Assembly: GCA_964560525.1 (NCBI GenBank) | Contig: CAZLLO010000001.1 | Location: 6,656-70,655, forward strand | Direction: 5' to 3' | From: an uncultured Candidatus Saccharibacteria bacterium | GTDB lineage: Bacteria; Patescibacteriota; Dojkabacteria; SC72 | Length of the DNA: 64,000 nt | Shown here: positions 1-33,923 of the stretch, one piece after another | Numbering within the stretch: the first letter of the stretch is position 1 | Layout: the number at the start of each line of letters is the position of its first letter | Notes under the pieces: model-generated | What the model was told of the DNA's origin: nothing | Databases searched by the model: none | Seen by the model: only the letters and a program-made list of their open reading frames with translations | Position numbers and translations under genes: made by a program

Positions 1-1639
1 CAAATCTCTTAAGAAGAAGCATCTTCATAAAGGTAAGCATATTTCTTTGTGAGATCTTCTCTCTTTCTGTTAACTCTCCAGTGTAATAAAGGAGTGGGAC
101 ATACCTACTATATTTAAAGTTCTCAATGAAAGAAATTGTCTTATTAAAGGCTTCATCCTCTTTAGAGTCAAACTGGTAAAAAATAGAATTGGGATCATGC
201 ACCTTTGGAAATTTAAGACCTTGTTTCTTTAAATCTTCACTGTAGTATTTCTCAATCTCTGTTCTAGTTCTCCTAACCATTAAATATTTCAAGATATTGT
301 TTCGAATGTCTTGTGCATTTTCCTTTACAATACTCATGTATTCATCATAGTTGTTTTTTCTGTCCAATTTTCTGATTCTAGAATTCAAACTACTAAAGTA
401 AGCTTCCAGATTCTGGACTCCTGGGATGTTACTTTTCCTACTATTTTGGAATAGTTTTATTTGTGCAAGTAAGTCTTTTGGCTGGTTATTAAATGGTGTA
501 GCACTAACTAAGATTACCTTCTTACTTCTACATATCTCTGATAGTCTTTCAAAAGATATTGTTGCTTCATTTCTAAAGTTGTGAGACTCATCAATAACAA
601 TGTTATCGTACTTATCTATCCCTCTTTCTAATATCCTTTCTAACATACCTACAGACTCACATTCATAACCTCTAACACCAAATTCCATCAACACATTGGC
701 CCATGAACCCGGGTTGTCCTTTGAGATTAGTGCAGGAGAGGCAATAACCAAGGTCTTCCCCCCAAGCGTATTGATTAACCTTGCAGCAATATATGTTTTC
801 CCTAAACCAACAACGTCCGATATAAACACTCCACCATACTCCTCTACAATCTTCTTAGCATTTACTACTGCCTGCTTCTGATACTCAAGCTCTAGATATC
901 CTTCAGGTGTGTAATCTTCTATTTCTGTATCTGCAGTAAGGTCTTCCTTAAAATACTCATACAGGAATTTAAGATATAACTGATATGGTGTAATCTCATT
1001 ATTAAGATGGGTTTTTTCACTTATTGTATCATTCAAATTCTGCGATATATCCATAGCTTCTTTCCAAAGTGCATTAAAATTGCCCAATGCATACTCGTAG
1101 TCCTTACTATTTTTTAACTCAACATTGAATTCCAAGTTGTCTTTAAGTCCTGATCTAGTGAGATTACTGGAGCCAGTGATAACCCTACCTGGATCTATCT
1201 GATTCTTATCAAATGTAAAAATATATAACTTAGCATGGAGGGGAGCCTTATCGTAAATCTTTATCTGTAATTTTCCACTCTTTAACCACTCAACAAATTT
1301 AAACATACCTTCCTCGACATCGGCATCATCTTCTGCTATTGCAACCTCATCAATATACTTCTTGCTAATACTTTCTTTAATCTTTTTGGCTGACTCAAAT
1401 TGTATTTCCAGATTCCCTTGTATAGCATCTACAACTTGTGATTCAGTATTAAGTCCAATTAGAATTCTTACCTTTTCTACTTTTTCTAGACTTTTGTATA
1501 TCTGATAGAAACCACTTATGTAGAAATAGCCAACAAGTATATCTAAATTTTCTGTTCTGGGTACTAATTCATTCAATCGCTCTGAGAGGGTATTACCTTT
1601 CTCATTAGTAATAAACTCAGTAATCTGGTTTCCTGACAT
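1..1639 (-). CDS. PLD-like nuclease domain fused to SNF2/DEAD-like helicase. The N-terminal ~546 aa are in the window; the C-terminus runs off the window edge.
   Basis: Hand translation of the minus strand from the ATG at 1639 (stop codon upstream at 1652-1654) gives MSGNQITEFITNEKG.... It has a PLD HxK-x4-D-x6-GSxN motif (HAKLYIFTFD...VITGSSNLT), a Walker A (GLGKTYIAA) and motif II (DESH) typical of SNF2/SF2 helicases. It is absent from the ORF track because there is no stop codon inside the window. Confidence 0.7.
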   Translation of the reverse strand, partial: MSGNQITEFITNEKGNTLSERLNELVPRTENLDILVGYFYISGFYQIYKSLEKVEKVRILIGLNTESQVVDAIQGNLEIQFESAKKIKESISKKYIDEVAIAEDDADVEEGMFKFVEWLKSGKLQIKIYDKAPLHAKLYIFTFDKNQIDPGRVITGSSNLTRSGLKDNLEFNVELKNSKDYEYALGNFNALWKEAMDISQNLNDTISEKTHLNNEITPYQLYLKFLYEYFKEDLTADTEIEDYTPEGYLELEYQKQAVVNAKKIVEEYGGVFISDVVGLGKTYIAARLINTLGGKTLVIASPALISKDNPGSWANVLMEFGVRGYECESVGMLERILERGIDKYDNIVIDESHNFRNEATISFERLSEICRSKKVILVSATPFNNQPKDLLAQIKLFQNSRKSNIPGVQNLEAYFSSLNSRIRKLDRKNNYDEYMSIVKENAQDIRNNILKYLMVRRTRTEIEKYYSEDLKKQGLKFPKVHDPNSIFYQFDSKEDEAFNKTISFIENFKYSRYVPLLYYTGELTEREKISQRNMLTFMKMLLLKRF

Positions 1640-1746
1640 GAGTATCCTTGTTTAATTTAAATAGTAATGTTGACTACACTCTATAAAAACATCTTTATTC
1701 ATGTCATTTTACCTCCTTCTACTGTTTTTTACCACCCATATTATAT

Positions 1747-3300
1747 TTAGAACACTCTCCGGCTTCCTGGACCAAATACATTCTGCCTTGTCCAATAGTT
1801 AGGTTCGTAACTACTACTCCCATATCTAAAAAGATCCCCGACCTCTTTTGATAAGACTTGCACAGGCCTTCTATCCTCCTTTATGGCTACATGTAGTACG
1901 ATGGTAAATGCATCTACTAGGTCATCATGCTTCTCTACTCCAAAATATACTAACTGCTGTATTAATTTGTCTGCACCTTCTTTTGGAAACAATACTTTAC
2001 CCGATCTAATCATATACGTTACTGAGTCTAACCTAGCCCTCTTATCCTGTCCATTAACAGAAAAACCCTTTGCATCAAAACTACTTGTAACTAATTGCTG
2101 TATAACTGCTCTCTGATATCCAACATCTTCAATATATATCTTACATCTCCTATCAAACAACCCTGATTCTTTTGAAAGACTCTTTATTCGCTCTGTTGCA
2201 GAGGGAAAATCCAATCGTTCATTAACAGGAAACTTTTGAATATATACCTTCAGAGTCTTTTCATATCCAAATACATGCCCTACTACTAAAGCTGTATAGT
2301 CTGCATGATTACTTGAAGATATAGCTAGATCAACCCCTATTACAGAATATCTATACCCATCACTATCTACAGGCAATTCATCATAGTACTGTATCCACTC
2401 CTTGTGTACTATTTGGTCTTCATCAGCAATAATTTTAAGCATATACTCCCTTTGCCATGCTTTATCATCTCCATTCAGCTTTCTTTCAACACTTAAATCA
2501 TCAAGTGTTGGGTATCTACCTTTCCAAAGTATTTCATTCTTATCATTAATAACAGGATATTCCCTGTAAATTGTATTACTCGATTCCTTCTCAATATTCT
2601 TTCTAAGTCTCATTAGTAAAGAATCTTCATGCAAAAGATTTCCCACCATCACAATCTTAGTATTTTTCTCTCCAAGAGGAGCAATCTCCCCTGTGAACCA
2701 AGTATATGTCCTATCTCTTCCTTCTTTCGTCTTTGTAGAAGTTAAATCTTCAACATCATCACAGATAATTAAGTCTGGTCTGTATGCTCCATGCCTTAAA
2801 CCTCTAATACTCTGTTCACTTGAAGCTGCTATTATCTTTGCATTAAAGTTAGGAATTACTAAAGAGAAGGAGCCCCACTCATCTGATGTCTCCTGGAAGG
2901 GGCCTAAGTCTTTTCTAAGAAGCTCATTGTATTCCAACTCTCTCTTTATATTAGCTAGATGTATCTTAGCTTGTTGTTGTGTCTGAGAAAGAATCACTAC
3001 ACATTTCTTCTGTTGTTTTCCTATTATTGACCATATTGGATATGACATTGTCATAATGGTTGATTTAGCAGAACCCCTGAAAGCAACAATAACTGCCATC
3101 TTTAGATTCTCATCCTCTGTAATCCTAAACATTTCTCTTTGAAATGGTGCTGTTTTGTACCTGGTATATTGGCTAAAATATAGATGAAAGAATATATAAT
3201 GGCTTTCTTTAACAATCACTCTTCTTGCGACCTGATCTTCCAAAAGTTTGTTTATATCCTCGATTGTTATTTCAGTATTATTCTGTAATTGGTTGTCCAT
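1747..3300 (-). CDS. terL: Phage terminase large subunit (TerL, Terminase_6-like).
   Basis: 517 aa. P-loop FRGSAKST, Walker B LIICDDVED, C-terminal RNaseH-fold nuclease acidic residues (IGVDLA, IEDVGY, HDDLVDAF). Confidence 0.8.
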   Translation of the reverse strand: MDNQLQNNTEITIEDINKLLEDQVARRVIVKESHYIFFHLYFSQYTRYKTAPFQREMFRITEDENLKMAVIVAFRGSAKSTIMTMSYPIWSIIGKQQKKCVVILSQTQQQAKIHLANIKRELEYNELLRKDLGPFQETSDEWGSFSLVIPNFNAKIIAASSEQSIRGLRHGAYRPDLIICDDVEDLTSTKTKEGRDRTYTWFTGEIAPLGEKNTKIVMVGNLLHEDSLLMRLRKNIEKESSNTIYREYPVINDKNEILWKGRYPTLDDLSVERKLNGDDKAWQREYMLKIIADEDQIVHKEWIQYYDELPVDSDGYRYSVIGVDLAISSSNHADYTALVVGHVFGYEKTLKVYIQKFPVNERLDFPSATERIKSLSKESGLFDRRCKIYIEDVGYQRAVIQQLVTSSFDAKGFSVNGQDKRARLDSVTYMIRSGKVLFPKEGADKLIQQLVYFGVEKHDDLVDAFTIVLHVAIKEDRRPVQVLSKEVGDLFRYGSSSYEPNYWTRQNVFGPGSRRVF

Positions 3301-3685
3301 TTTCTTCCTCCTTTCTCTCTTCTGAGAATGCCATACTAAGAGATTTACGAATTAGTTCCTTTTGCTCATCCGTTAGAGGGAGATCCTTGTTAGTTGTAGT
3401 TACTTCAAGTTTAGGAGAGTAGTTCTTATGGTGATTCTTTAACCAGAATATTATTCCAGTTAAGTTTCCATCCCTTATGGCAGAGATCAATTGACTCTCT
3501 GCCATATCATTAATTAACTGAGCCCCTTCTTGTAGTGCAATCTCAGCATCTTCTGCAAACTTAGGATCTCTTTTCTTCCATCTATAGAATGTTGCTCTTG
3601 ATACTCCCATCTTTTCGCAAGTTACCTGTATGATTGGTGTTTTCTTAAGCTGTTCTACAATTGCTTTCTTATTTATTGTTTTCAT
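3278..3685 (-). CDS. Small HTH protein in the terminase-small-subunit position.
   Basis: 135 aa. HTH signature VSRATFYRWKK. Lies immediately upstream of terL and overlaps it by 23 nt. Confidence 0.5.
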   Translation of the reverse strand: MKTINKKAIVEQLKKTPIIQVTCEKMGVSRATFYRWKKRDPKFAEDAEIALQEGAQLINDMAESQLISAIRDGNLTGIIFWLKNHHKNYSPKLEVTTTNKDLPLTDEQKELIRKSLSMAFSEERKEEENGQPITE

Positions 3686-5010
3686 TGTATTTTCTTTGCA
3701 CTTAATTTAGTTAGGTTTTCCCATCTATTCCTAATTACCTCTGCATAAACAGGAGATTTTTCCATTAAATAGCATCTTCTTTTCATCTTCTCACAAGCAA
3801 TTAATGTAGATCCGCTTCCGCCAAACGGTTCTACTACTAAATCATTTCTTTTTGTAAGGACTTTGACATAAGGAATGAGTATTTCTAACGGTTTTGTCCC
3901 AAAGATTATCCCCTGTCCAGAGCTTTTCTCATCAGAAGCTTTGTATTCTATGAAGTCAGTTGGCTGTATTTTCTTCCCTTTCTCATATCCTTCCCAATGG
4001 GGCTTCCCAGATATGGCATACAAAGCTGTCTGGTACTCATTCTGAAGCAATTCTTCCTCGGGAGGAGTATTCATGACTTCCTCTTTGTATGAGGAACCAA
4101 CCATTGCTATATCGTGTTTAGAAAAGAATTTGTATTTAGCAGAAAATCCTTGGTGTCTATTTGGTATATGCCAAACAATCATGTTTTTTACCTTCCAATA
4201 CTTCTCCATTTCTCCCCATATAGTCCTAATATTTTTCCAATTTTCATATACAATGATGTGGAAATCCTCCTTTGCTACTTCTGAAATATTTTTCATCCAT
4301 AGTTCTGTGAAGTTATCTGGTAATACATCTGTCTCAAGGTACTTTCTGTCTCTTTTGTATCCGAATCCTTCCGTTGGTTTACCGCTCTTTTTCTTCCCAT
4401 GAAGATAGTCCAAAATATACGGAGGGTCCGTATAAACCATATCTGCTTTTTCACCATTCATTAACTTGAGCATGTCTTCTTGTACTGTAGAGTCTCCACA
4501 CATCATCCTATTTTCTCCTAATTGCCATATATCTCCTTTTTGAATTTCAATCTTCTTAATGTCTAGCTTGTTAAGCTCTTTTTTGAGATCAAATACTTCT
4601 GGGCTATTATCTTCCCAATCAAAGATTAGATCCAATTCCTCTGAGTTGAAACCTGTATCTGTTAAGAATTCCTCTGCAAAGCCAGCGAGAAGTTTAAAGT
4701 CGAATTCTCCTTGATTTTTGTTTAATCTAAGGTTTAATTCCTTCTCCTTCTCAATATCTGGAATATTTACATATACAACAGGCATTTCTTTTATACCTAA
4801 GGCTTTCGCTGCCTCTATACGCATATGTCCACCAATGACAATGTTCTGTCTACTAGGAGCATTGTTAACTATTGCTGGATCTACAATACCAAATCTTTGG
4901 ATACTGGTTTTGAGATCATTTAAAGCTTTTTCATCCCATTTCCTTGGGTTGTAGTCAGCTTTGACTAAGGCGTCTATTTGAACATAGACTGTTTGAAGTT
5001 TGTTCTTCAT
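3682..5010 (-). CDS. ParB-like nuclease domain fused to a beta-class DNA methyltransferase (N6-adenine or N4-cytosine).
   Basis: N-terminal ParBc-like block GGHMRIEAAKALG. Motif IV DPPY lies upstream of motif I EPFGGSGST, which is the beta-class order. ATGA start/stop overlap with the upstream gene. Confidence 0.75.
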   Translation of the reverse strand: MKNKLQTVYVQIDALVKADYNPRKWDEKALNDLKTSIQRFGIVDPAIVNNAPSRQNIVIGGHMRIEAAKALGIKEMPVVYVNIPDIEKEKELNLRLNKNQGEFDFKLLAGFAEEFLTDTGFNSEELDLIFDWEDNSPEVFDLKKELNKLDIKKIEIQKGDIWQLGENRMMCGDSTVQEDMLKLMNGEKADMVYTDPPYILDYLHGKKKSGKPTEGFGYKRDRKYLETDVLPDNFTELWMKNISEVAKEDFHIIVYENWKNIRTIWGEMEKYWKVKNMIVWHIPNRHQGFSAKYKFFSKHDIAMVGSSYKEEVMNTPPEEELLQNEYQTALYAISGKPHWEGYEKGKKIQPTDFIEYKASDEKSSGQGIIFGTKPLEILIPYVKVLTKRNDLVVEPFGGSGSTLIACEKMKRRCYLMEKSPVYAEVIRNRWENLTKLSAKKIQ

Positions 5011-5105
5011 AACTTAAATAGTAAAAATTTAGATATATATGCTTAAATAATGGTTATTCAAGCTATATCTAAATGATAAAACAATGATAGTTGTGTAAAG
5101 TTGGG

Positions 5106-5846
5106 TTACTTTCTTAAGAAGGATATATATGCAGGATTAACAGTGAACATTGTGTTGTTAGATATAAAGAAATCCTTGTATCCAATACCTTCTTCAATAG
5201 TATGGTTTAAGGCCCTATATTTCTCATACACTATGTGATACCAATCCTTACTTGCATCCGAGTAGTCTTCACCAATAGCTTTTACTAAATCTTCTAACTC
5301 CCAAGGCATCTTTTTACGACGCTTACCGCCGAACATAAACTTACACAAATCATACCTAGGAGTTCCCTTTTTTAATGCTAACGGGAAGCCATTTATCACT
5401 AAACGTGGTTTTTCTTCTTCAAAAACAACATTATTTGTTTCTAGGAACATGAATTGAGGTTTATTCTTTATTACTACTTTAATTGCTTCTGCAACTTCTT
5501 TTGTCACTTTAAATGATATTGTCTTAAATTTTGTAGCACCTTCCTGTATTGTATAAATCGTGTATATATCTTCTTCTGTAAGTGTACCCTCTTTTAAACC
5601 TTTCCTTATTTCTTTAGGAGAGATAGAAATCCTTAGGTTTAAGAAAAATTCATAGGTATCTGAGCTTAGGTAGATGGTTTTTTCAAAGAATTTTGCTATA
5701 CCCGAGGTAACTTCCAACATCTTATTGATAACCTTCTGTATAGGTTTCATCGTTTTATTAATAATCTCTATCTGTTGTTGGAAACTTCCAGAAGCTATCT
5801 CTATACTTTTCACTATATCTGCGATATCACCCATTTGTAGCAACAC
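5106..5846 (-). CDS. Hypothetical protein.
   Basis: 246-aa ORF in the same orientation and block as the phage-like genes. No motif recognised. Confidence 0.4.
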   Translation of the reverse strand: MLLQMGDIADIVKSIEIASGSFQQQIEIINKTMKPIQKVINKMLEVTSGIAKFFEKTIYLSSDTYEFFLNLRISISPKEIRKGLKEGTLTEEDIYTIYTIQEGATKFKTISFKVTKEVAEAIKVVIKNKPQFMFLETNNVVFEEEKPRLVINGFPLALKKGTPRYDLCKFMFGGKRRKKMPWELEDLVKAIGEDYSDASKDWYHIVYEKYRALNHTIEEGIGYKDFFISNNTMFTVNPAYISFLRK

Positions 5847-5962
5847 CCCCTAAGTTAAACTATCATGTATTATAATATCTTTTACGTATTTATGGTGGGA
5901 AAAAAGAGATAATATACCAGAAGACCATTCTAATATGAAAACAGCGAACATATTAGCAACTC

Positions 5963-7558
5963 CTAGTCTACACCATTTTTCTTATCAAGGACTTTTTTTA
6001 TCTTTTCAATATCTCTGGCCACGATTGGTTCAAATACGTCTAAAATTGCCAATAAACTACTAACATTATTAATATTGCTAACCCGTGCCATCTCTAAATT
6101 CGAAAGTGCTTCTTTATTTTCGGGGTAGTGCTTATTTATAGCGTTGATCCTCAATTTCCTACTAAAGGTATAATTCCCTGGATGATTGGCATCCACTACA
6201 CCATATAAAAAATGAATTATCTTACTAGAGAGATACTGACATCTCTCAGTCAAGTCTTCTGGTCCTTTTTCCACAGTATCATCTTCACACCACTTTCTAA
6301 TCTCTTGCATCTCGGAAACTAAATCTTTATTTAGTAAATAAGTTAATTCTGATCCAGACTGAGGAAATTCCTCGTGTGGAAGCATCTTCCCATACAAAAG
6401 TATTCCATCAAAGGTACATATAAATCTATCCTTCTTATACTCTTCTCCTAAAAAGTCCGATATATTTATAACTTTCACATCATTTTTGATCTCCCGAAGG
6501 AGTTTAGCACTCTCTTTATCAATTTCTTTTGCCCCTTTTTCAAGTATTATATAGATATTAGTGTCTGAAACACCTTCCTCATGCTCCCCTCTAGCAAGAC
6601 TCCCAAGAAGATAGATAGATCGCAAATCATTGCCATAACGGCACTTACAAAGCTCTATCATGTCATTAATCCAATTCTTATGTGTAGCATCAATAGCATC
6701 AAAGTTTGTAAGATTAACTATTTTTAAAGTATTGGAAAATTGCAAATATTCGTTTATAACCTTCTTATCACCCTCCCCAACTAATGGATACCCTAGTTCG
6801 TTAATAAATAAAAGGGCTATGTCGTCAATATTTTTATATATTTCATCAAAGGTCTTTTCCAGTTGCTTTTGTGACACCGTTGAAAAATCTTCCAATGTCT
6901 TATCTCTCTTTTCTTGTAAAAGTTTTTCTCCTTCAGTTGTTAAAACTCCAGACATGCTTAATACAATCCGAAGTCCTTTAATTTCATTAAAATCTTGATT
7001 CTGATGAAGAGTACTCAAAAAATGATGATACCCCGTACGTTTTCTGAGACAAACTTGAATTCCAGACTGTCCAGAATGGTCATCTGCATCCCATTTTGAC
7101 ATTAGATCTTCCAGCTTCTTAGACTTAATAGCACTCAAATATTTCTTTAATTTTTGATCACTTGATCGAACCTTTTTCTTCAGATCCTCAATAGTAAATT
7201 CTTCTGAACTATCAATATCATTCTCCAAAAGATAGCTCATCTTAATCAATTTATCTTTGAGTTGATGTACTAAATCTAAAAAGTACCCTTGATAAAATAT
7301 TATTATATCCTCTTTACTCAAACCCTCAGCTTTTAAAAAAGACTCATCGTACTCATACTTCATAAGAGACCTTACTCTTTTAAGGTCTACCAGGACTCTT
7401 TTCACCTCATTCGCGTAGTCGAATCTTGATTGCAAGTAGCCTGTTGTAGCAGAGTCACAGTTTATAGCCAAACAATGAGGCTCACTAAGCTTCTGCTTAA
7501 AAACATCAATTAGAAGCCTGGTACACAAGTTATTTAGATTTGATTTTTCTATATCCAT
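5963..7558 (-). CDS. Large protein with a Pol-beta-superfamily nucleotidyltransferase (MNT-like) core.
   Basis: 531 aa. GS-x11-D motif LLGSLARGEHEEGVSDTN near residue 318. The second carboxylate is replaced by N, so the domain may be inactive. Rx5-6H patches (RKRTGYHH, RINAINKH) could be HEPN-like. The N-terminal 300 aa are unassigned. Confidence 0.45.
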   Translation of the reverse strand: MDIEKSNLNNLCTRLLIDVFKQKLSEPHCLAINCDSATTGYLQSRFDYANEVKRVLVDLKRVRSLMKYEYDESFLKAEGLSKEDIIIFYQGYFLDLVHQLKDKLIKMSYLLENDIDSSEEFTIEDLKKKVRSSDQKLKKYLSAIKSKKLEDLMSKWDADDHSGQSGIQVCLRKRTGYHHFLSTLHQNQDFNEIKGLRIVLSMSGVLTTEGEKLLQEKRDKTLEDFSTVSQKQLEKTFDEIYKNIDDIALLFINELGYPLVGEGDKKVINEYLQFSNTLKIVNLTNFDAIDATHKNWINDMIELCKCRYGNDLRSIYLLGSLARGEHEEGVSDTNIYIILEKGAKEIDKESAKLLREIKNDVKVINISDFLGEEYKKDRFICTFDGILLYGKMLPHEEFPQSGSELTYLLNKDLVSEMQEIRKWCEDDTVEKGPEDLTERCQYLSSKIIHFLYGVVDANHPGNYTFSRKLRINAINKHYPENKEALSNLEMARVSNINNVSSLLAILDVFEPIVARDIEKIKKVLDKKNGVD

Positions 7559-7604
7559 ATGTATTGATTATACTCTTTTTTAGGGTGTCTCTTTTGTCTC
7601 ATTT

Positions 7605-8012
7605 TTGATATCATCTAGTCGGGGAAATGGGGTCCAGACCCATATGTCCCGTATTATTTCTCTGCTCCATATTCTAAGGCTAAATACCTGGTCAACAGAA
7701 ATCTCAAAAGAAATTCATGTTTTACAGGATGATATCGTGATAACAAAGAACAGAGTAAGTGCTTTTTGTAATACCAATTTAGATTCCATATTAAAATTAA
7801 AAGAAAATGATATTGAAGATATTATGATTGCGGGTATTGCAACCGAGTTAGCAGTTTCAAGTACAGTTCGAGATGCGCATGATTTGGATTATGATGTTAC
7901 TGTAATTGAAGACTGTTGTGCTTCTGCAGATATTTCTAATCATAATGCTACGATGAAGATATTACAGAAGATAGCAAAGATAGAGAATTCTGCTACGGTA
8001 TTTGAAAAATAA
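7605..8012 (+). pseudogene. 5'-truncated isochorismatase/cysteine-hydrolase family gene (C-terminal ~105 aa only).
   Basis: DDIVITKNRVSAF...IMIAGIATELAVSSTVRDAHDLDYDVTVIEDCCAS matches the C-terminal half of the isochorismatase-like fold. The apparent N-terminus of the ORF is translated from repeat R1 (7633-7674), so the true 5' part is missing. Confidence 0.6.
7633..7674 (+). repeat. Repeat family copy R1 (TCCAGACCCATATGTCCCGTATTATTTCTCT...CCATATT).
   Basis: Direct repeat shared with 8036, 9535 and 10323. Contains 3 CCRTAT sub-motifs about 10-22 bp apart. Confidence 0.7.
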
Positions 8013-29575: not shown

Positions 29576-32107
29576 CTAAGATTCCAAATTTAATTTCTCT
29601 AACAATTCTTTCTGTTTCTGTTGTAATCTTGCATTAAAAATAATGTGGTAATCAAAGTTAGGGTTTTGTTTTTGGAAATCTCTGAATCCTAATTCTTTCG
29701 CAAATACCTCATTTGTGATTCTTCTATCTCCTTTTTCGTAATCTTCTTTGTTTCTTGAGTAGTCAATCTTTTTATCATCTTCTTTAACTTCAATAACAAT
29801 AAATCTTCCTTTACTCGTCTCTATTAAGAAATCTGGGAAATACCTACTGATCTTTTCTTTCGAGGGATTCCAATATTCGAAGAAAAAATCTGTATGGACA
29901 GAGTCTGTTACGTTTCCTGTAAAATATAAATCTATAACTACCTCATCAGGACTTAATATTTCTCTTAGATACAAAAATAATTCTTTTTCGTCTGTTGTGT
30001 CAAAAGAATATGGGTTTATATGAAATCCTAATCTCCCATTCTCTAAATCTTCCTGATAAACTACAAGGCTTTCTCTATTTTTATCTCGACTTAATTTAAA
30101 TGGGAAATTCTTTGTTAATTCAAGTTCCTCCTCTACAATCGTCCTCTCCTCTTCATATTTATATAACTGGCTCGTAATATCATTCGCAATACTGTTTGTA
30201 ACATATGTAGAATTTCTATTTGTTAAACAATCGCAATTATCAATATTGTTAGCTTTAAATATCTCTTCAACATCTAAGCAAGGTACATGGGTTTTCAAAG
30301 ATAAATTTGCTACAAAGTGTATATATGATTGTTGAGATTCTTCCCACTTAATATCAACTTCTTTTCGTTTATTTATAAAAGCTGTATGAGAGTCTTCATT
30401 CAATTTAATACCACCTTCCTTTTTAATTCCTTCCACAGAAGATTTTATGTACTCGCCCAAAGGTTTTAGCTTTATATCCTCTAGCTTCTTGTTTTCTATG
30501 TTTTTTATTTCGGTTAAGATTTTCTTTACCTTTATCTTTCTTGTTTTTAATACATTCAATGCTAAATCCAACTTTTCAACATTCTGTTGTTCTAAATCTG
30601 CCCTTGTTACAGAGAAATTCCTTTGCAATTCTTTATCTAATATCAAAGCATTTTCATCTGATAAGAATATAGTTGCAAAAGTAGAATTATCTCCAATAGA
30701 TCGCATACATCTTGTAGATGCCTGAAGAACAAAAATAGCGCTTGTAGGCTTCCTGTAAAGGGCGGTAGCCACCAAGGAACGAACATTCCATCCTTCAGTA
30801 CCTTTTCCTACTAAAAGTATAAATTGCTTTTTACTTTCATCCGTGTCCAGTTTCAAAAATTCATCCCTACTTTCTTCTTTCTCTGTATGGTATTCTAATA
30901 TACTTTCTAAAGGGATACCTTTTTTAGAAAGTATTTTTTCCAACAAAGGTCTCAGATTCTGCTGCAGATCTTCAATGCTACTAGAATAAAAAGCTATCTT
31001 GGGAAGTTTTCCTTCTAATTTTAGTCCTTGGTAACGATTTGTAAAGACATTTACAACCTCTGAAACGAAATCATCTGATTTAACATTCTCATATTCAACA
31101 AAATTAACTCGTTTCAAGATACCCTCCTCAATACCTTGTTTTAAACCAAAATAATATACAACATCACTAATAAGTTTGTTATTCACATATGGAGTACCCG
31201 TAAAATTCACCACATTTACCAAAGGAGTCTGGGCTTCTTCATTTAAGAATTTTATCGTTTGTCTTGTCTTCTTAAGTGTATTATCAAGATTAGTTCCATA
31301 AGAATGGTGCGCTTCATCAACAAAGATGGCTAAATTAGAAAGTCCTTTTATAGCATCCCTTCTATAATTAGCATGGAATTGCTTCTCTCTATCCGCTTCA
31401 TTTAAAAGAATCTGCCCAGACTTCAAAGTATTATTTTTTTTCTTTAATATAATTTTTTGAGAGTTTGAAACAATAACATTATAGTTTCCAATAAAATTAA
31501 CAGGTGTTTCTGTGCTCTCTAAATAGTGATATTTGATATTCAAGACAATGTTTTCATATTCTTTTGGAACAACAGTTCTATAATCAAAGGATTTTATTTC
31601 CTTTAAACTCTCAATTATTGTTGTATCAGGAGCAAAAACAAGAATGTTTTTAGCAAATCTTGAATCGGGATATCGAGAAGACAGTATAAACTCATACATT
31701 ATCATTGTACCCATTAACAGAGTCTTGCCAGAACCCATTGTAAGAGCATATACCTGATTAGGATAGGCGAATTGTCCATATTCTTTCTCTACCAACTTCT
31801 TGATCTTGGTTTCTTTTTCAGGATCATAGGCTAAATTTAGAACCTCTTCGTTTGATAACGAGAAACTAGAAATTAAATCTCTTTCAGACTCATAAAGATT
31901 AGGAATTATTTCTGCAGTTGTTTTATTTCCCAATATCTCTTTGAGATATACATAAGTTTCAAAGGCTTCTTTTTGCGGAGTATAAAGATAGTTGATTTTG
32001 TATATATGCTTTAATATGTTTCTTGTTTCTTTTGTAACACCAGGATAATCAGCTAATTTCCAAGATTCTACTTTTATTTTTAATTTTTCGAAGAGGAGAC
32101 TATTCAT
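29576..32107 (-). CDS. res: Type III restriction enzyme Res subunit (SF2 helicase plus C-terminal PD-(D/E)xK endonuclease).
   Basis: Walker A MGSGKTLLMG, motif II FVDEAHHS, C-terminal PDFLIET...IVIEVK. Overlaps mod by 8 nt. Confidence 0.8.
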   Translation of the reverse strand: MNSLLFEKLKIKVESWKLADYPGVTKETRNILKHIYKINYLYTPQKEAFETYVYLKEILGNKTTAEIIPNLYESERDLISSFSLSNEEVLNLAYDPEKETKIKKLVEKEYGQFAYPNQVYALTMGSGKTLLMGTMIMYEFILSSRYPDSRFAKNILVFAPDTTIIESLKEIKSFDYRTVVPKEYENIVLNIKYHYLESTETPVNFIGNYNVIVSNSQKIILKKKNNTLKSGQILLNEADREKQFHANYRRDAIKGLSNLAIFVDEAHHSYGTNLDNTLKKTRQTIKFLNEEAQTPLVNVVNFTGTPYVNNKLISDVVYYFGLKQGIEEGILKRVNFVEYENVKSDDFVSEVVNVFTNRYQGLKLEGKLPKIAFYSSSIEDLQQNLRPLLEKILSKKGIPLESILEYHTEKEESRDEFLKLDTDESKKQFILLVGKGTEGWNVRSLVATALYRKPTSAIFVLQASTRCMRSIGDNSTFATIFLSDENALILDKELQRNFSVTRADLEQQNVEKLDLALNVLKTRKIKVKKILTEIKNIENKKLEDIKLKPLGEYIKSSVEGIKKEGGIKLNEDSHTAFINKRKEVDIKWEESQQSYIHFVANLSLKTHVPCLDVEEIFKANNIDNCDCLTNRNSTYVTNSIANDITSQLYKYEEERTIVEEELELTKNFPFKLSRDKNRESLVVYQEDLENGRLGFHINPYSFDTTDEKELFLYLREILSPDEVVIDLYFTGNVTDSVHTDFFFEYWNPSKEKISRYFPDFLIETSKGRFIVIEVKEDDKKIDYSRNKEDYEKGDRRITNEVFAKELGFRDFQKQNPNFDYHIIFNARLQQKQKELLEKLNLES

Positions 32108-33923
32108 TTTTCTTAAGGTTTATTTCAAATGTTTCAAAATACTCTTCTCCTAAGACATCAATTATCTTCACCGCAACTATATTCTTCTCATTACTCTTAT
32201 TTTCATATTCATATTTAGCAGATATCAAATTCTTTCTATCTGGTAAATCCATAATTTCAGCATTGAACAATTTCCCATTGTAATTAGTATCAATACATAC
32301 ACTGTCAATGATTTGTTTAAAATCTTCCACATACACATTTTCCTTGGAATCAAGCTGCTTTTCATTCTCAAGTTCCAACTTCTTTATGAGAATAGGAGAA
32401 TGAAAATCTCTGATTTCAATAAGAACCTTTTTATCACTAGCTTTTACTTCTACCTTTGCTTCTGGTAGTTGTTTAAATATGAGATTTTTATTATCAGCCT
32501 GGATATCTTTAACTTCAACTTTTACACCTGTTTTGTTTTCTTTCCTCAGATACTCTAAAGCATCTAGTTCTACTCCAGAGGCAATAATTATGACTTCTTG
32601 TTCATAAATTTCCTCCTCCTGAGAAGATGTCGTTTTTCCAGTAAACTGATCTATACCCTTTTCTATTTCTCTTATAACATTCTCGATATCTAACTTGTTA
32701 AGCACTCTATTTAGGGGCATTACCTTTACAAGGTTATCATCGAGTACTCCATCAAAATAACTTTGTTTAATTGGTTCTACACCATATATATCCATTATTA
32801 TTTCTTTTGACTCAATTTCATTCTTAAAAATATCATAGTCATTTACATTGTAAACTTTAAAAGATCTTAAGCCTTTGTATTCTTCTACTAGTTTCTGTTG
32901 TTTTTGATCCTCGATTATTTGATTTAATCTTTTCGTTGTAGTTTGTATAGCTCCAAGATTAATATCACATCCTATCCACCTTCTTCCCAATTCCTGTGCT
33001 ACTGCTAGAGTCGTACCACTTCCACAGAAACAATCCAAAACTAAATCACCAGGGTTAGAGGAAGCTTTAACAATTCTTTCAAGTAAAGTCACAGGCTTTT
33101 GTGTTGGATAAGAAGTTCTTTCCGTTTCATCTCTTTGTGAAATAATTCCCATATCCCAAACATCATCAGCATTTTTCAAATCATCTACATAATATGTATA
33201 TACCTTACCATTCGCTCTTACCTCTTGATATCTTTTCCCTTCTTTATCTGTTTTAAAATAACCACTAAAGCTACCCTCATCCGTATTTCTTTTTACACCC
33301 GCTTCGTGTCCATTATAATTCCACTCCTCACCTTTCCTGTACCATAAAATAGTATCATGTTTCCTATTAAACCAAGTATTACTTCGCCCTCCACCATTTT
33401 TGTAATACCATATAATTTCATTCAAAATATTCTTCTCTCCAAATATTTCATCTAACACTAATCTTAATTGAGCAACTTTCCTATAATCCAAATGTACAAA
33501 AATTGTGCCATTTTCTGCAAGAAGTTCTTTCAGTATGATTAATCTTTCATACATAAATTGTAAGTATTCATCATTTGCCCATATATCGGAATATTGCTTT
33601 TCCTCTAGCAAACTTCCTTGAGTACCTTCAACATTCAAACCTCTTAATTTAACTTTTTTTATGTAATCTGCGCTGCTATCAAAAGGGGGATCTATATATA
33701 TCAGGTCTATTTTCCCCCGATACATCTTAAGTAAATGAGATAACACCTGCAAATTGTCTCCCCAAAATAACTTGTTAAACTCTTTTGTATTAAAATCACC
33801 ATAAACTTCTTTCTCTTGTGCAGGAAAATATTCAACAGATTCTAAAGGTTTTTTGCCAATCCAATGAAGCATAGGCCTTCCCTTAATAGGAGATATCGTT
33901 TGAATATCATTCTGTTTGGACAT
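32100..33923 (-). CDS. mod: Type III Mod DNA methyltransferase (beta-class N6-adenine methyltransferase).
   Basis: Motif IV IYIDPPFDS lies before motif I DCFCGSGTT. 607 aa. Confidence 0.8.
   Translation of the reverse strand: MSKQNDIQTISPIKGRPMLHWIGKKPLESVEYFPAQEKEVYGDFNTKEFNKLFWGDNLQVLSHLLKMYRGKIDLIYIDPPFDSSADYIKKVKLRGLNVEGTQGSLLEEKQYSDIWANDEYLQFMYERLIILKELLAENGTIFVHLDYRKVAQLRLVLDEIFGEKNILNEIIWYYKNGGGRSNTWFNRKHDTILWYRKGEEWNYNGHEAGVKRNTDEGSFSGYFKTDKEGKRYQEVRANGKVYTYYVDDLKNADDVWDMGIISQRDETERTSYPTQKPVTLLERIVKASSNPGDLVLDCFCGSGTTLAVAQELGRRWIGCDINLGAIQTTTKRLNQIIEDQKQQKLVEEYKGLRSFKVYNVNDYDIFKNEIESKEIIMDIYGVEPIKQSYFDGVLDDNLVKVMPLNRVLNKLDIENVIREIEKGIDQFTGKTTSSQEEEIYEQEVIIIASGVELDALEYLRKENKTGVKVEVKDIQADNKNLIFKQLPEAKVEVKASDKKVLIEIRDFHSPILIKKLELENEKQLDSKENVYVEDFKQIIDSVCIDTNYNGKLFNAEIMDLPDRKNLISAKYEYENKSNEKNIVAVKIIDVLGEEYFETFEINLKKNE

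What the first reader, a model, noticed from the sequence alone, without database searches (positions are those of the whole stretch)
1..1639. PLD-nuclease / SNF2-helicase fusion encoded directly downstream of terminase genes
A single polypeptide with a PLD HKD nuclease N-terminal domain and a SNF2/SF2 ATPase. This architecture is typical of defence or anti-defence nucleases such as DISARM DrmC/DrmD-like components and Type III-like helicase-nucleases. It occupies the position where a portal gene is expected after terL. The gene continues beyond the window.
Basis: partly seen in the sequence, partly recalled or inferred. Interest (0 to 1): 0.6.

Follow-up and report, generated by a model that had tools for sequence, protein, structure and literature searches.

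The report
Restriction-type motor nuclease beside terminase genes
The gene encodes a nuclease fused to a DNA motor that, with the DNA methylase gene that follows it, looks like a two-gene restriction-modification defence unit carried as swappable cargo in a small terminase-bearing mobile element common in ultra-small (Patescibacteria) bacteria, so it is not a stand-in for a phage portal.

Summary
A minus-strand ORF starts at window 1639 and runs off the left end. It has an N-terminal single-HKD PLD nuclease and a Snf2-type ATPase N-lobe. A 100 % identical public contig (L003) completes it at 1053 aa, with an intact Helicase_C lobe.

Two nucleotides after its stop begins an 1143-aa Type IIG-like N6-adenine methyltransferase (Eco57I + TaqI_C) with a variable specificity region. 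This pairing was found in every one of 31 related loci, in bacteria, archaea and viral contigs.

The upstream ParB-methylase, terS and terL genes are real and under purifying selection, but they are not part of an intact prophage. In more than 40 related Patescibacteria loci, terL is followed by a large serine recombinase. It follows either directly or after 0.9-9.2 kb of variable cargo, such as this cassette, Type I RM, Thoeris TIR or Sie-like genes. No portal or capsid family recurs.

The gene is therefore best read as the restriction subunit of an uncharacterised two-gene ATP-dependent RM-like system. It resembles SauUSI and MANTIS MtsD in architecture and is not DISARM. It sits in the cargo slot of a satellite-like element.

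Function is inferred, not shown. Interest is moderate.

The parts
1..1639 (-). First 546 codons of a 1053-codon gene for a PLD(HKD)-Snf2 helicase-nuclease. It is the proposed restriction subunit of a two-gene RM-like cassette.
   Evidence: Translation. Pfam on the fragment. Full length from the identical contig L003.
1064..1552 (-). PLD/HKD nuclease domain, residues 30-192. It has one HxK motif (1223-1240) and one GSSN motif (1163-1174) per chain, so an active site would need a dimer.
   Evidence: Pfam PLDc_2 and RE_NgoFVII. H135, K137 and G156-N159 are invariant in 56 homologues. Coordinates. Dimeric single-site PLD nucleases (BfiI, SauUSI, MtsD) are described in 10.64898/2026.09.23.753747.
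236..889 (-). Snf2-type ATPase N-lobe, with Walker A GLGKT (794-808), motif II DESH (581-592) and motif III SATP (494-505).
   Evidence: Pfam ResIII and SNF2-rel_dom. Invariant columns. Fold search top hits are Snf2 ATPases, plus SauUSI.
1640..1746 (-). terL-helicase intergenic region. It contains a conserved 30-nt block, GTGGTAAAAAACAGTAGAAGGAGGTAAAAT, at 1706-1735, which marks the left edge of the cargo slot. Nucleotide similarity to terL-less copies of the cassette starts here.
   Evidence: Similarity to L001 starts at L003 3160 = window 1735. The block occurs once per cargo-bearing sister locus whatever the cargo. It is unique in the window, with 0.02 expected by chance. A promoter role is only a guess; the sigma-70 scan was not above chance.
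1747..3300 (-). Large terminase subunit (517 aa), intact. It has Walker A GSAKST, Walker B LIICDD and conserved nuclease aspartates.
   Evidence: Pfam Terminase_6C. PHROG 38, E 1.8e-81. dN/dS 0.05-0.10 against orthologues. Invariant columns.
3278..3685 (-). Small terminase-like HTH protein (135 aa).
   Evidence: PHROG 309 and 4044, terminase small subunit. Conserved upstream of terL in about 75 loci. dN/dS 0.04-0.08.
3682..5010 (-). ParB_N + N6/N4 DNA methyltransferase fusion (442 aa), a conserved core gene of the element.
   Evidence: Pfam. PHROG 498. Present in nearly all related loci. dN/dS 0.05.
5106..5846 (-). Conserved 246-aa core gene of unknown function. Its C-terminal half may be a winged-helix DNA binder.
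   Evidence: No Pfam, PHROG or NCBIfam hit. Orthologues in L004, L012, L028, L031, L032 and L036. The model has pLDDT 63, and OmpR/PhoB DNA-binding-domain hits are weak, E 3e-3 to 0.1.
5963..7558 (-). 531-aa protein with a weak nucleotidyltransferase domain. It is not found in sister elements and is probably variable cargo at the upstream edge.
   Evidence: Pfam NTP_transf_2, E 2.6e-4. PADLOC candidate PDC-S09, E 6.6e-7. No tblastn match in any other locus.

Best explanation
The ORF at window 1-1639 (minus strand) is the first half of a 1053-aa motor nuclease. It has an N-terminal single-HKD PLD nuclease, a complete Snf2-family dsDNA-translocase core, and a ~250-aa C-terminal region of unknown role.

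It is the first gene of a tightly coupled two-gene cassette. The second gene starts 2 nt after its stop. It encodes an 1143-aa Type IIG/PglX-like gamma-class N6-adenine methyltransferase with a TaqI_C specificity domain, and no conserved nuclease triad of its own was found.

Proposed mechanism (inferred, not shown):
- The methyltransferase reads a short, probably asymmetric, sequence, methylates host DNA and marks unmethylated sites on incoming DNA.
- The PLD-Snf2 protein dimerises through its PLD domains to form one active site.
- It is recruited or licensed at unmodified sites, translocates on dsDNA using ATP, and cuts.
This would make the pair an ATP-dependent RM system comparable to Type III, Type ISP, SauUSI and MANTIS.

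The cassette is not functionally tied to the terminase. It is cargo in a defined slot between terL and a large serine recombinase. The slot belongs to a small, capsid-less element (246-aa gene / ParB-methylase / terS / terL / slot / recombinase) that is widespread in Patescibacteria. In sister elements the slot is empty or holds other defence genes.
For: Architecture and motifs:
- Pfam domains and invariant motifs.
- The model of a 92 %-identical homologue (pLDDT 74) matches Snf2 ATPases (CSB, SMARCAD1, Chd1, RapA, ZorD) at E ~1e-15 to 1e-13. SauUSI (7clg) is among the hits whose alignment spans most of the chain (833 of 847 columns), and it is the one that shares the PLD-plus-motor architecture.

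Family:
- 614 clusters at 50 % identity match at E<=1e-30. Typical length is 1040-1130 aa, aligned from residue ~7.

Methylase coupling:
- 27 of 31 loci with a near-full helicase have the Eco57I/TaqI_C methylase starting within 100 nt downstream.
- The other four have it upstream (L022), 868 nt away (L006), or separated by an IS insertion (L115/L116).

Methylase features:
- Eco57I E 8.5e-44 and TaqI_C E 2.9e-16.
- PADLOC REase_MTase_IIG, 724 bits.
- DPACGSG and NPP motifs are conserved, but no D...ExK triad is conserved in the N-terminal domain across 19 orthologues.
- Between L003 and L001, nucleotide similarity (87 % across the rest of the cassette) drops out over the specificity region, L003 8553-9717.

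Cargo status:
- The same element occurs without the cassette, with terL followed by the recombinase after 42-118 nt (L012, L032).
- The same slot holds HsdR/M/S + an ABC-type ATPase + DUF2779 in L031.
- It holds a PLD-Snf2/methylase pair only 33 % identical to this one in L028-30.
- 41 loci have the recombinase downstream of terL. 17 have gaps under 400 nt and 24 have 0.9-9.2 kb of cargo.
- ORFs within 5 kb downstream of terL (slot cargo and genes beyond the recombinase) include Methylase_S, ThsB_TIR, RVT_1, Vsr, NucS and Sie-like genes. No portal or capsid family is hit by two or more of 148 ORFs.

Timing of acquisition:
- Helicase dS is 0.60 between the window and L004, while dS is above 2 for terL, terS and ParB-MTase.

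The recombinase follows the methylase in this genome too:
- L003 ends with the conserved 33-nt motif and the first 9 recombinase codons.

Defence-island context elsewhere:
- GmrSD in L002 and AbiE in L115.
Against: - No experiment supports any step. I found no paper characterising this two-gene system. The pairing is mentioned only in passing, in PMC9881135.
- How the two proteins communicate is unknown.
- For the closest studied analogue, MtsD, nuclease activity has not been reconstituted in vitro and an AAA+ loader is needed. A loader-free version may work differently.
- PADLOC's best model for the methylase is labelled as a complete Type IIG restriction-methylase. The methylase might therefore cut on its own, with the helicase as an accessory.
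- The ~250-aa C-terminal region is unassigned and could hold a modified-base reader, which would make the enzyme Type IV-like.
- The helicase is split or IS-disrupted in several other genomes (L001, L002, L114, L115).
- The mobility of the host element is inferred from comparative gene order only. No att sites or empty sites were found.
Confidence: 0.7

Rival explanations
1. The downstream 1143-aa protein is a self-sufficient Type IIG restriction-methylase. The PLD-Snf2 protein is only an accessory, for example a translocase that boosts or redirects cleavage, or a second back-up nuclease.
For: - PADLOC model REase_MTase_IIG PDLC03596 matches the methylase at 724 bits, including its N-terminal 430 residues.
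- Homologues of Cj0031-type enzymes exist without a helicase neighbour (PMC9881135).
- L007 has the methylase but no helicase within 10 kb upstream.
Against: - No D...(D/E)xK triad is conserved in the N-terminal domain across 19 orthologues.
- The helicase keeps all nuclease and ATPase motifs under strong purifying selection, with dN/dS 0.034.
- The two genes are almost always adjacent, with 0-30 nt spacing or an overlap.
Confidence: 0.12
2. It is a SauUSI-like Type IV enzyme: a modification-dependent, ATP-driven nuclease that acts on its own. The neighbouring methylase would be an unrelated or antagonistic partner.
For: - SauUSI (7clg) is among the solved structures aligned over most of the modelled chain, and the one that shares the PLD-plus-motor architecture.
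- There is a weak PADLOC mREase_IV hit.
- The ~250-aa C-terminal region is unassigned.
Against: - No SRA or DUF3427 reader domain is detected.
- The gene is adjacent to an N6A methylase across phyla. A Type IV enzyme would not need that.
- The methylase specificity region diversifies while the helicase stays 92-96 % identical. This is the pattern expected if the methylase supplies specificity.
Confidence: 0.07
3. It is a component of a DISARM (DrmD/DrmC-like) system.
For: - Partial matches to DrmD and DrmC profiles.
- The methylase has weak DrmMI hits.
Against: - No DrmA or DrmB/DUF1998 gene occurs in any of the loci examined.
- NCBIfam DrmD scores 125 and 63 bits against cut-offs of 610 and 950.
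- The cassette is consistently two genes.
Confidence: 0.02
4. It is a phage or satellite life-cycle gene linked to the terminase, acting in DNA packaging, replication, host-DNA degradation or anti-defence, rather than a defence gene.
For: - It lies 108 nt downstream of terL on the same strand, with no predicted terminator between them.
- PHROG 26785 (unknown function) matches at 795 bits, so some viral genomes encode the family.
- IMG/VR contigs carry the pair.
Against: - Sister elements lack it entirely, or carry Type I RM in its place.
- The cassette also occurs where no terL is nearby: L002, L008, L009, L011, L114 and L115.
- It is always paired with a methylase.
- The best match in cultured phages is 27 % identical and partial.
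Confidence: 0.05

Closest known systems
MANTIS (Gao_RL, 'Type-2 BR system') effector MtsD
   Same: - N-terminal HKD/PLD nuclease fused to an SF2/Snf2-like ATPase.
- Partner of an N6-adenine methyltransferase that supplies specificity.
- A dimer forms one PLD active site and the fold is SauUSI-like (10.64898/2026.09.23.753747; PMC12839542).
   Different: - No MtsA (DUF499 AAA+) or MtsB (DUF3780) is present.
- The methylase belongs to a different family (Eco57I/TaqI_C Type IIG-like, not DUF1156).
- Sequence similarity is low: NF042964 scores 137 bits against a cut-off of 1100, and PADLOC PLD_Helicase scores 75 bits over the C-lobe only.
SauUSI, Type IV ATP-dependent restriction endonuclease (PDB 7CLG)
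   Same: - Domain order is PLD nuclease then SF2 motor.
- It aligns over most of the modelled chain, E 4.9e-14.
   Different: - SauUSI has a C-terminal SRA-type reader, targets 5mC/5hmC DNA and has no methylase partner.
- Here no reader domain is detected and a methylase is always adjacent.
- Sequence identity is 13 %.
Type III (EcoP15I) and Type ISP (LlaGI/LlaBIII) restriction-modification enzymes
   Same: The logic is the same: a methylase with a specificity domain plus an SF2 motor plus a nuclease, with ATP-dependent communication along DNA.
   Different: - The nuclease here is PLD/HKD at the N-terminus, not PD-(D/E)xK or Mrr.
- The motor is Snf2-type.
- The methylase is a ~1150-aa gamma-class Type IIG/PglX-like protein, not a beta-class Mod.
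- There are two polypeptides, not the single chain of Type ISP.
Type IIG/IIL enzymes (MmeI, Cj0031 family) and BREX PglX/BrxX (for the partner gene)
   Same: - Eco57I-type catalytic domain, TaqI_C specificity domain and a large N-terminal domain.
- PADLOC REase_MTase_IIG, 724 bits.
- PglX/BrxX structures match the catalytic core.
- PMC9881135 records Cj0031-like genes next to PLD+SNF genes.
   Different: - No conserved nuclease triad.
- No BrxA/B/C/L or PglZ genes.
- Scores are below the NCBIfam PglX cut-offs: 125 against 400 and 110 against 500.
Phage satellites with defence cargo (PICI/cf-PICI, P4-like, PLE) (for the host element)
   Same: - A small integrated element with an integrase (PLE also uses a large serine recombinase).
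- It has its own packaging gene(s), no virion structural genes, and variable anti-phage cargo at fixed hotspots.
   Different: - It carries both terS and terL plus a ParB-methylase, but no capsid, portal, primase or replication gene was recognised.
- It is restricted, as far as sampled, to Patescibacteria.
- Induction, excision and packaging are untested.
- I found no description of it.

Membership tests
PLD/HKD nuclease superfamily | An HxK(x)4D...GSxN motif in a PLD fold. One copy per chain implies a dimeric active site. | tested here: met
   - PLDc_2 E 1e-12 and RE_NgoFVII E 2.5e-8.
- H135, K137 and G156-S-S-N159 are invariant in 56 sequences.
- Only one motif is present per chain.
Snf2-family SF2 ATPase | Both RecA lobes with motifs I, II (DExH), III and VI, and a Snf2-type fold. 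| tested here: met
   - GLGKT, DESH and SATP lie in the window.
- Helicase_C E 4.8e-21, and the QRVGRINR motif is in the full-length sequence.
- Foldseek top hits are CSB, SMARCAD1, Chd1, RapA and ZorD.
DISARM | A DrmA (DUF1998-associated helicase) and DrmB core, with DrmD as an equivalog. | tested here: not met
   - No such genes occur in L001-L004, L028-L032 or L114-L116.
- NF038317 scores 125 bits against 610, and NF038318 scores 63 against 950.
MANTIS / Gao_RL | A four-gene set: MtsA (DUF499 AAA+), MtsB (DUF3780), MtsC (DUF1156 methylase) and MtsD. | tested here: not met
   - The cassette is two genes flanked by terL and the recombinase.
- The methylase is Eco57I/TaqI_C type.
- NF042964 scores 137 bits against 1100.
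SauUSI-type Type IV restriction enzyme | A C-terminal modified-cytosine reader (SRA/DUF3427) and autonomous action without a methylase. | tested here: not met
   - Pfam shows no reader domain.
- A methylase is adjacent in 27/31 loci and nearby in the rest.
- The C-terminal ~250 aa remain unassigned, so a novel reader is not excluded.
Type IIG restriction-methylase (partner gene) | An N-terminal PD-(D/E)xK endonuclease in the same chain as the methylase and specificity domain. | tested here: inconclusive
   - There is a strong profile match to a REBASE-derived Type IIG model.
- No conserved acidic/lysine triad is present in residues 1-150 across 19 orthologues.
- No structure was predicted for this protein.
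Restriction-modification system (generic) | The methylase protects self DNA, and the nuclease cuts unmodified DNA at or near the same specificity. | not testable with these tools
   This needs methylome and restriction assays. Only gene linkage and motif integrity are shown.
Intact (pro)phage | Portal, major capsid and tail genes contiguous with the terminase. | tested here: not met
   - None is present within 10 kb in L004, L012, L028, L031, L032 or L033.
- Among 148 ORFs within 5 kb downstream of terL, none of the listed families (all those matched by two or more ORFs, plus the first of the single-member ones; 25 of about 140) is a portal or capsid family. Most single-member families were not listed, so isolated cases are not excluded.
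- The window right of 7600 is ordinary chromosome.
Phage satellite | An integrase, helper-dependent packaging functions and no structural genes; helper-induced excision and packaging. | tested here: inconclusive
   - The gene content fits: a large serine recombinase, terS and terL, and no recurrent structural genes.
- Excision, att sites and packaging were not testable.

The most novel reading that the evidence does not exclude
The conserved block of a 246-aa gene, ParB-methylase, terS, terL and a large serine recombinase may be an undescribed family of capsid-less, terminase-encoding integrative elements, widespread in Patescibacteria and satellite-like in character.

These elements would have a defined, integron-like cargo slot. 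The slot is bounded on the left by a 30-nt block after terL. On the right it is bounded by a 33-nt motif (CCTAGACTTCC-N12-GGTACCTTCC) abutting the recombinase start codon. Through this slot, defence cassettes would be exchanged among ultra-small bacteria.

The PLD-Snf2 + Type IIG-like methylase pair is one such cassette. It would be a minimal, loader-free relative of MANTIS.
Probability: 0.3. Interest if true: 0.7.

Novelty: new variant of a known kind. Interest (0 to 1): 0.5.

Why it matters
**The two-gene system.**
- It is large and widely transferred. There are 614 clusters at 50 % identity, and members more than 50 % identical occur in MAGs labelled Dehalococcoidia, Nitrospirota, Omnitrophota, Patescibacteria and Euryarchaeota.
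- It has the same effector architecture as the newly characterised MANTIS, but lacks the AAA+ loader and co-regulator.
- If it restricts DNA with only a methylase and a PLD-Snf2 motor, it would be the simplest system for asking how a methylase licenses a translocating PLD nuclease.
- Defence scanners would flag only the methylase as 'Type IIG', so it is a likely source of mis-annotation.

**The host element.**
- It suggests how Patescibacteria, which mostly lack CRISPR, acquire and shuffle defence genes.
- The vehicle would be a small terminase-bearing element with a fixed cargo slot.
- This can be tested directly with virome and long-read data.

Tried and rejected
**Searches that gave little.**
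- Nucleotide search of window 1-8000 against 50,697 phage records found no match.
- Protein search of the helicase against cultured phages gave at most 27 % identity and partial coverage.
- The source genome is not among the GTDB representatives. The best match is a Dojkabacteria MAG with 67 % methylase and 96 % helicase identity.
- Look-ups by exact terL and terS sequence returned only the 9.9-kb Logan contig, not the 148-kb NCBI contig. The DNA beyond the first 9 recombinase codons of this genome was therefore not seen.

**Ideas tested and dropped.**
- Shufflon or programmed inversion at the methylase specificity region. Only chance-level short repeats occur in L004 5000-18000.
- A second copy of the 33-nt recombinase-proximal motif that could mark an att partner. 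There is none in the window and only one per locus.
- A sigma-70 promoter or intrinsic terminator between terL and the helicase. The scans are at or below chance.
- DISARM, MANTIS, Dpd, Zorya and BREX membership. All equivalog scores are far below cut-off.

**Other limits.**
- The 246-aa core gene was modelled with low confidence and gave only weak winged-helix matches.
- Literature searches for this two-gene system, or for a Patescibacteria terminase/serine-recombinase element, found nothing specific.
Full report
**1. Observation**

The window's first 1639 bases carry, on the minus strand, an ORF whose ATG is at 1639. It reads 546 codons without a stop off the left end.

Pfam places three domains on this fragment, all above their curated cut-offs:
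- a PLD-like domain at residues 30-192 (PLDc_2, E 1e-12; RE_NgoFVII PLD, E 2.5e-8);
- ResIII and SNF2-rel_dom at residues 338-468.

The sequence shows one HKD signature (LHAKLY...GSSN). It also shows the Snf2-type motifs I (GLGKT), II (DESH) and III (SATP). These residues are invariant in 56 homologues.

Upstream on the same strand lie three genes:
- a 517-aa large terminase at 1747-3300 (Terminase_6C; PHROG 38, E 1.8e-81);
- a 135-aa small-terminase-like HTH protein at 3278-3685;
- a ParB_N+N6/N4 methyltransferase at 3682-5010.

The description is therefore correct at the stated coordinates.

**2. Completing the gene**

An exact look-up of the terL protein returned a 9913-bp public contig, L003. 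L003 is 100 % identical to the window over 4894 nt and extends it 5 kb to the left. L003 position x corresponds to window position 4895-x.

On L003 the helicase is 1053 aa. It has Helicase_C at 660-762 (E 4.8e-21) and an intact motif VI. That exact 1053-aa protein, the downstream methylase, terL and the window's alanine racemase are all on record on one 148,263-bp NCBI contig. Cluster mates at 90 % identity or more are named Candidatus Dojkabacteria.

**3. The partner gene**

Two nucleotides after the helicase stop, an 1143-aa gene begins.
- Pfam finds Eco57I (E 8.5e-44), N6_Mtase and TaqI_C (E 2.9e-16).
- PADLOC's REBASE-derived model REase_MTase_IIG matches it at 724 bits.
- By sequence, the closest solved structures are CamA, BseCI, PglX/BrxX and TaqI.
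- Across 19 orthologues the AdoMet motif (DPACGSG) and the NPP catalytic motif are conserved. No D...(D/E)xK triad is conserved in the first 150 residues.

The cassette's evident nuclease is therefore the PLD domain of the helicase protein. This is an inference.

**4. Linkage of the two genes**

I held 31 loci with a near-full-length helicase homologue. They were retrieved with the helicase, the methylase or terL as query, and they come from bacterial and archaeal MAGs and from IMG/VR contigs.
- In 27, the Eco57I/TaqI_C methylase starts within 100 nt downstream, usually at 0-30 nt or overlapping.
- In L022 it is immediately upstream.
- In L006 it is 868 nt away.
- In L115/L116 an IS91-type insertion separates the two genes.

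Between L003 and L001 the cassette is 87 % identical in DNA. The exception is L003 8553-9717, the specificity region, where similarity is lost.

Against L004 the helicase is 96 % identical (dN/dS 0.034). The methylase is only about 70 % identical (dN/dS 0.20).

A conserved motor-nuclease beside a methylase with a diversifying specificity domain is the classic signature of an RM system in which the methylase supplies specificity.

**5. Fold and family**

I modelled P0003, a homologue 92 % identical to the window protein (847 aa, 56-sequence alignment, pLDDT 74).

It matches Snf2 ATPases (CSB, SMARCAD1, Chd1, RapA, ZorD) at E 1e-15 to 1e-13. The Type IV enzyme SauUSI (7clg) ranks sixth. Its alignment runs over 833 of the 847 columns, and it is the hit that shares the PLD-plus-motor architecture.

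A full HMMER scan of 1.84 billion cluster representatives found 614 at E<=1e-30. Most are 1040-1130 aa and align from residue ~7. This is a coherent, widely transferred family with a fixed architecture.

**6. What it is not**

Scores against curated equivalog models are all far below threshold:

| NCBIfam model | Score (bits) | Cut-off (bits) |
|---|---|---|
| phospholipD_antiphage (Gao_RL/MANTIS helicase) | 137 | 1100 |
| DrmD | 125 | 610 |
| DpdE | 85 | 500 |
| ZorD | 29 | 1500 |

In PADLOC the best helicase match is a generic 'HKD+Snf2' model, C3a139, at 163 bits.

No DrmA/DrmB genes, DUF499/DUF3780/DUF1156 genes, or BrxA/B/C/L/PglZ genes neighbour the pair in any locus.

It is therefore not DISARM, MANTIS or BREX by membership. 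By architecture it works most like the following:
- MtsD of MANTIS, a dimeric PLD-SF2 effector downstream of a methyltransferase complex. MtsD nuclease activity has not yet been reconstituted in vitro (10.64898/2026.09.23.753747).
- The 'Type-2 BR' HKD-Swi2/Snf2 effector (PMC12839542).
- SauUSI.

The only literature mention of this exact pairing that I found is a table entry in PMC9881135. It lists Cj0031-like Type II RM genes with an adjacent PLD (cd09178) + SNF helicase gene.

**7. The terminase context**

The rest of the window is ordinary chromosome: alanine racemase, ABC transporters, a histidine kinase and a Type III RM.

No related locus has portal, capsid or tail genes. In relatives of this terL (54-81 % identical, many on Patescibacteria contigs of up to 1.19 Mb) the recurrent neighbourhood is as follows:
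- a ~240-aa gene, in the closer relatives;
- ParB-methylase;
- terS;
- terL;
- a large serine recombinase.

| Locus | Arrangement around terL |
|---|---|
| L012, L032 | The recombinase follows terL after 42-118 nt. Defence genes lie upstream of the core: Type I RM + OLD in L012, and a PLD-Snf2/methylase pair in L032. |
| L031 | The terL-recombinase interval holds HsdR/M/S, a 901-aa ABC-type ATPase and DUF2779. |
| L028-30 | The interval holds a PLD-Snf2/methylase pair only 33 % identical to the window's. |
| L004, L037, L038 | The interval holds the window's own type of cassette (96 % identity). |

A metagenome scan with a terL profile gave 490 confirmed stretches, of which 80 were fetched.
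- 41 loci have the recombinase downstream of terL on the same strand.
- In 17 of these the gap is under 400 nt. In 24 it is 0.9-9.2 kb.

I scanned 148 ORFs lying within 5 kb downstream of terL. Some lie in the terL-recombinase interval and some beyond the recombinase.
- The families hit by two or more ORFs include Methylase_S, ThsB_TIR, RVT_1, Vsr, NucS, HNH, Mutator transposase and Sie-like superinfection-exclusion proteins.
- No portal or capsid family is hit by two or more ORFs.
- Most single-member families were not listed, so isolated cases cannot be excluded.

The core genes are intact and under strong purifying selection, with saturated dS:

| Gene | dN/dS |
|---|---|
| terL | 0.05-0.10 |
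| terS | 0.04-0.08 |
| ParB-methylase | 0.05 |
| 246-aa gene | 0.09-0.17 |

The helicase has dS of only 0.60 between the window and L004. The cassette was therefore shared far more recently than the core.

In the window's own genome, L003 ends with the conserved recombinase-proximal motif and the first 9 codons of the recombinase (MKDTNELKY). The order here is therefore terL, helicase, methylase, recombinase.

**8. Slot boundaries**

In the close relatives the cargo is bracketed by two conserved blocks.
- **Left block.** The 30-nt sequence GTGGTRRAAA-N14-TAAAAT lies just after terL. It sits at window 1706-1735 on the minus strand and is unique in the window (0.02 expected). It occurs once in each of 10 cargo-bearing loci whatever the cargo.
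- **Right block.** The 33-nt sequence CCTAGACTTCC-N12-GGTACCTTCC directly abuts the recombinase ATG and occurs once per locus.

In the calls I checked, the stop codon of the last cargo gene is the TAG inside the right motif in 6 of 8 distinct loci. This holds even though the last gene differs, being the methylase in some loci and DUF2779 in another.

Cassette copies L001, L002 and L005 also carry the recombinase start after the methylase. L001 has no recognisable terL in its 97 nt upstream.

I cannot say whether these blocks are recombination sites, regulatory sites, or simply conserved flanks that allow homologous exchange.

**9. Mechanism**

The shown and inferred steps are kept apart.

Shown:
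- the domain content;
- intact catalytic motifs;
- tight, phylogenetically broad linkage to a Type IIG-like N6A methylase with a variable specificity region;
- residence in a slot that otherwise holds Type I RM and other defence genes;
- purifying selection.

Inferred:
- The methylase methylates host sites and recognises unmodified sites.
- The PLD-Snf2 protein dimerises to build one HKD active site, as in BfiI, SauUSI and MtsD.
- It is licensed at unmodified sites, translocates with ATP and cleaves.

I put about 0.7 on 'restriction subunit of a two-gene ATP-dependent RM-like defence system'. The rivals are:
- a self-sufficient Type IIG enzyme with an accessory motor (0.12);
- a SauUSI-like Type IV enzyme (0.07);
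- a life-cycle function of the element (0.05);
- DISARM (0.02).

**10. Novelty and interest**

The domain fusion is catalogued (CDD cd09178, PADLOC C3a139). Its pairing with Cj0031-like genes has been noticed. I found no functional study and no named system, so I rate it a new variant of a known kind: ATP-dependent RM.

The more novel lead is the host element. It is a capsid-less unit carrying terS, terL and a serine recombinase, it has a fixed defence-cargo slot, and it is common in Patescibacteria. I could not find a description of it, and its mobility is untested.

Overall interest is 0.5.

Noticed in passing
L003 9847-9879; also L001 6861-6893, L002 7238-7270, L004 13428-13460, L005 3202-3234, L012 11471-11503, L028 18121-18153, L031 20650-20682: A 33-nt motif, CCTAGACTTCC-N12-GGTACCTTCC, occurs exactly once per locus and directly abuts the ATG of the large serine recombinase. 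It runs into an imperfect palindrome spanning the start codon. There is no Shine-Dalgarno-like sequence upstream of the recombinase. In 6 of 8 distinct loci the stop codon of the last cargo gene is the TAG inside the motif. It could be a recombination or operator site.
   Followed up: partly
window 1706-1735 (minus strand): A conserved 30-nt block, GTGGTRRAAA-N14-TAAAAT, lies just after terL. It is present once in each cargo-bearing sister locus whatever the cargo (either PLD-Snf2 type, Type I RM or another methylase) and is absent from the empty-slot loci L012 and L032.
   Followed up: partly
window 5963-7558 (minus strand): A 531-aa ORF has a weak nucleotidyltransferase domain and a hit to the PADLOC candidate defence family PDC-S09. 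It has no counterpart in any sister element. It may be further variable cargo at the upstream edge of the element.
   Followed up: partly
window 7605-8012 (plus strand): An isochorismatase-family ORF matches only profile positions 69-166 of 175 and has stops upstream in frame. It is a 5'-truncated gene right at the apparent edge of the element, and may be a disrupted integration target.
   Followed up: partly
window 29576-33923 (minus strand): A separate RM locus that looks like Type III: an 843-aa ResIII helicase-type protein preceded by a 607-aa N6_N4 methyltransferase.
   Followed up: no
L001 183-3344; L002 632-3796; L114 8001-11128; L115 4637-7273: In other genomes the PLD-Snf2 gene is repeatedly broken at different points: 798+231 aa, 650+378 aa, 552+480 aa, and an IS91-type insertion after residue 878. 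The methylase persists in each case. This looks like recurrent inactivation of a costly restriction subunit.
   Followed up: partly
window 1-1639 and L003 3256-6417 compared with L004 6834-9998: The helicase is 96 % identical (dS 0.60) between two genomes whose flanking terL, terS and ParB-methylase genes are 69-85 % identical (dS above 2). This indicates recent lateral replacement of the cassette within an older element.
   Followed up: yes
window 5106-5846 (minus strand): The 246-aa core gene has no family assignment. A low-confidence model suggests an OmpR/PhoB-like winged-helix C-terminal half, so it may be a regulator of the packaging operon.
   Followed up: partly
L013, L014, L020, L021, L024 (IMG/VR contigs): A PLD-Snf2/methylase pair about 51 % identical to this one lies roughly 4-6 kb from a distantly related terL (27 % identical) on the opposite strand. 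The cassette therefore also travels on other phage-like contigs near packaging genes.
   Followed up: no
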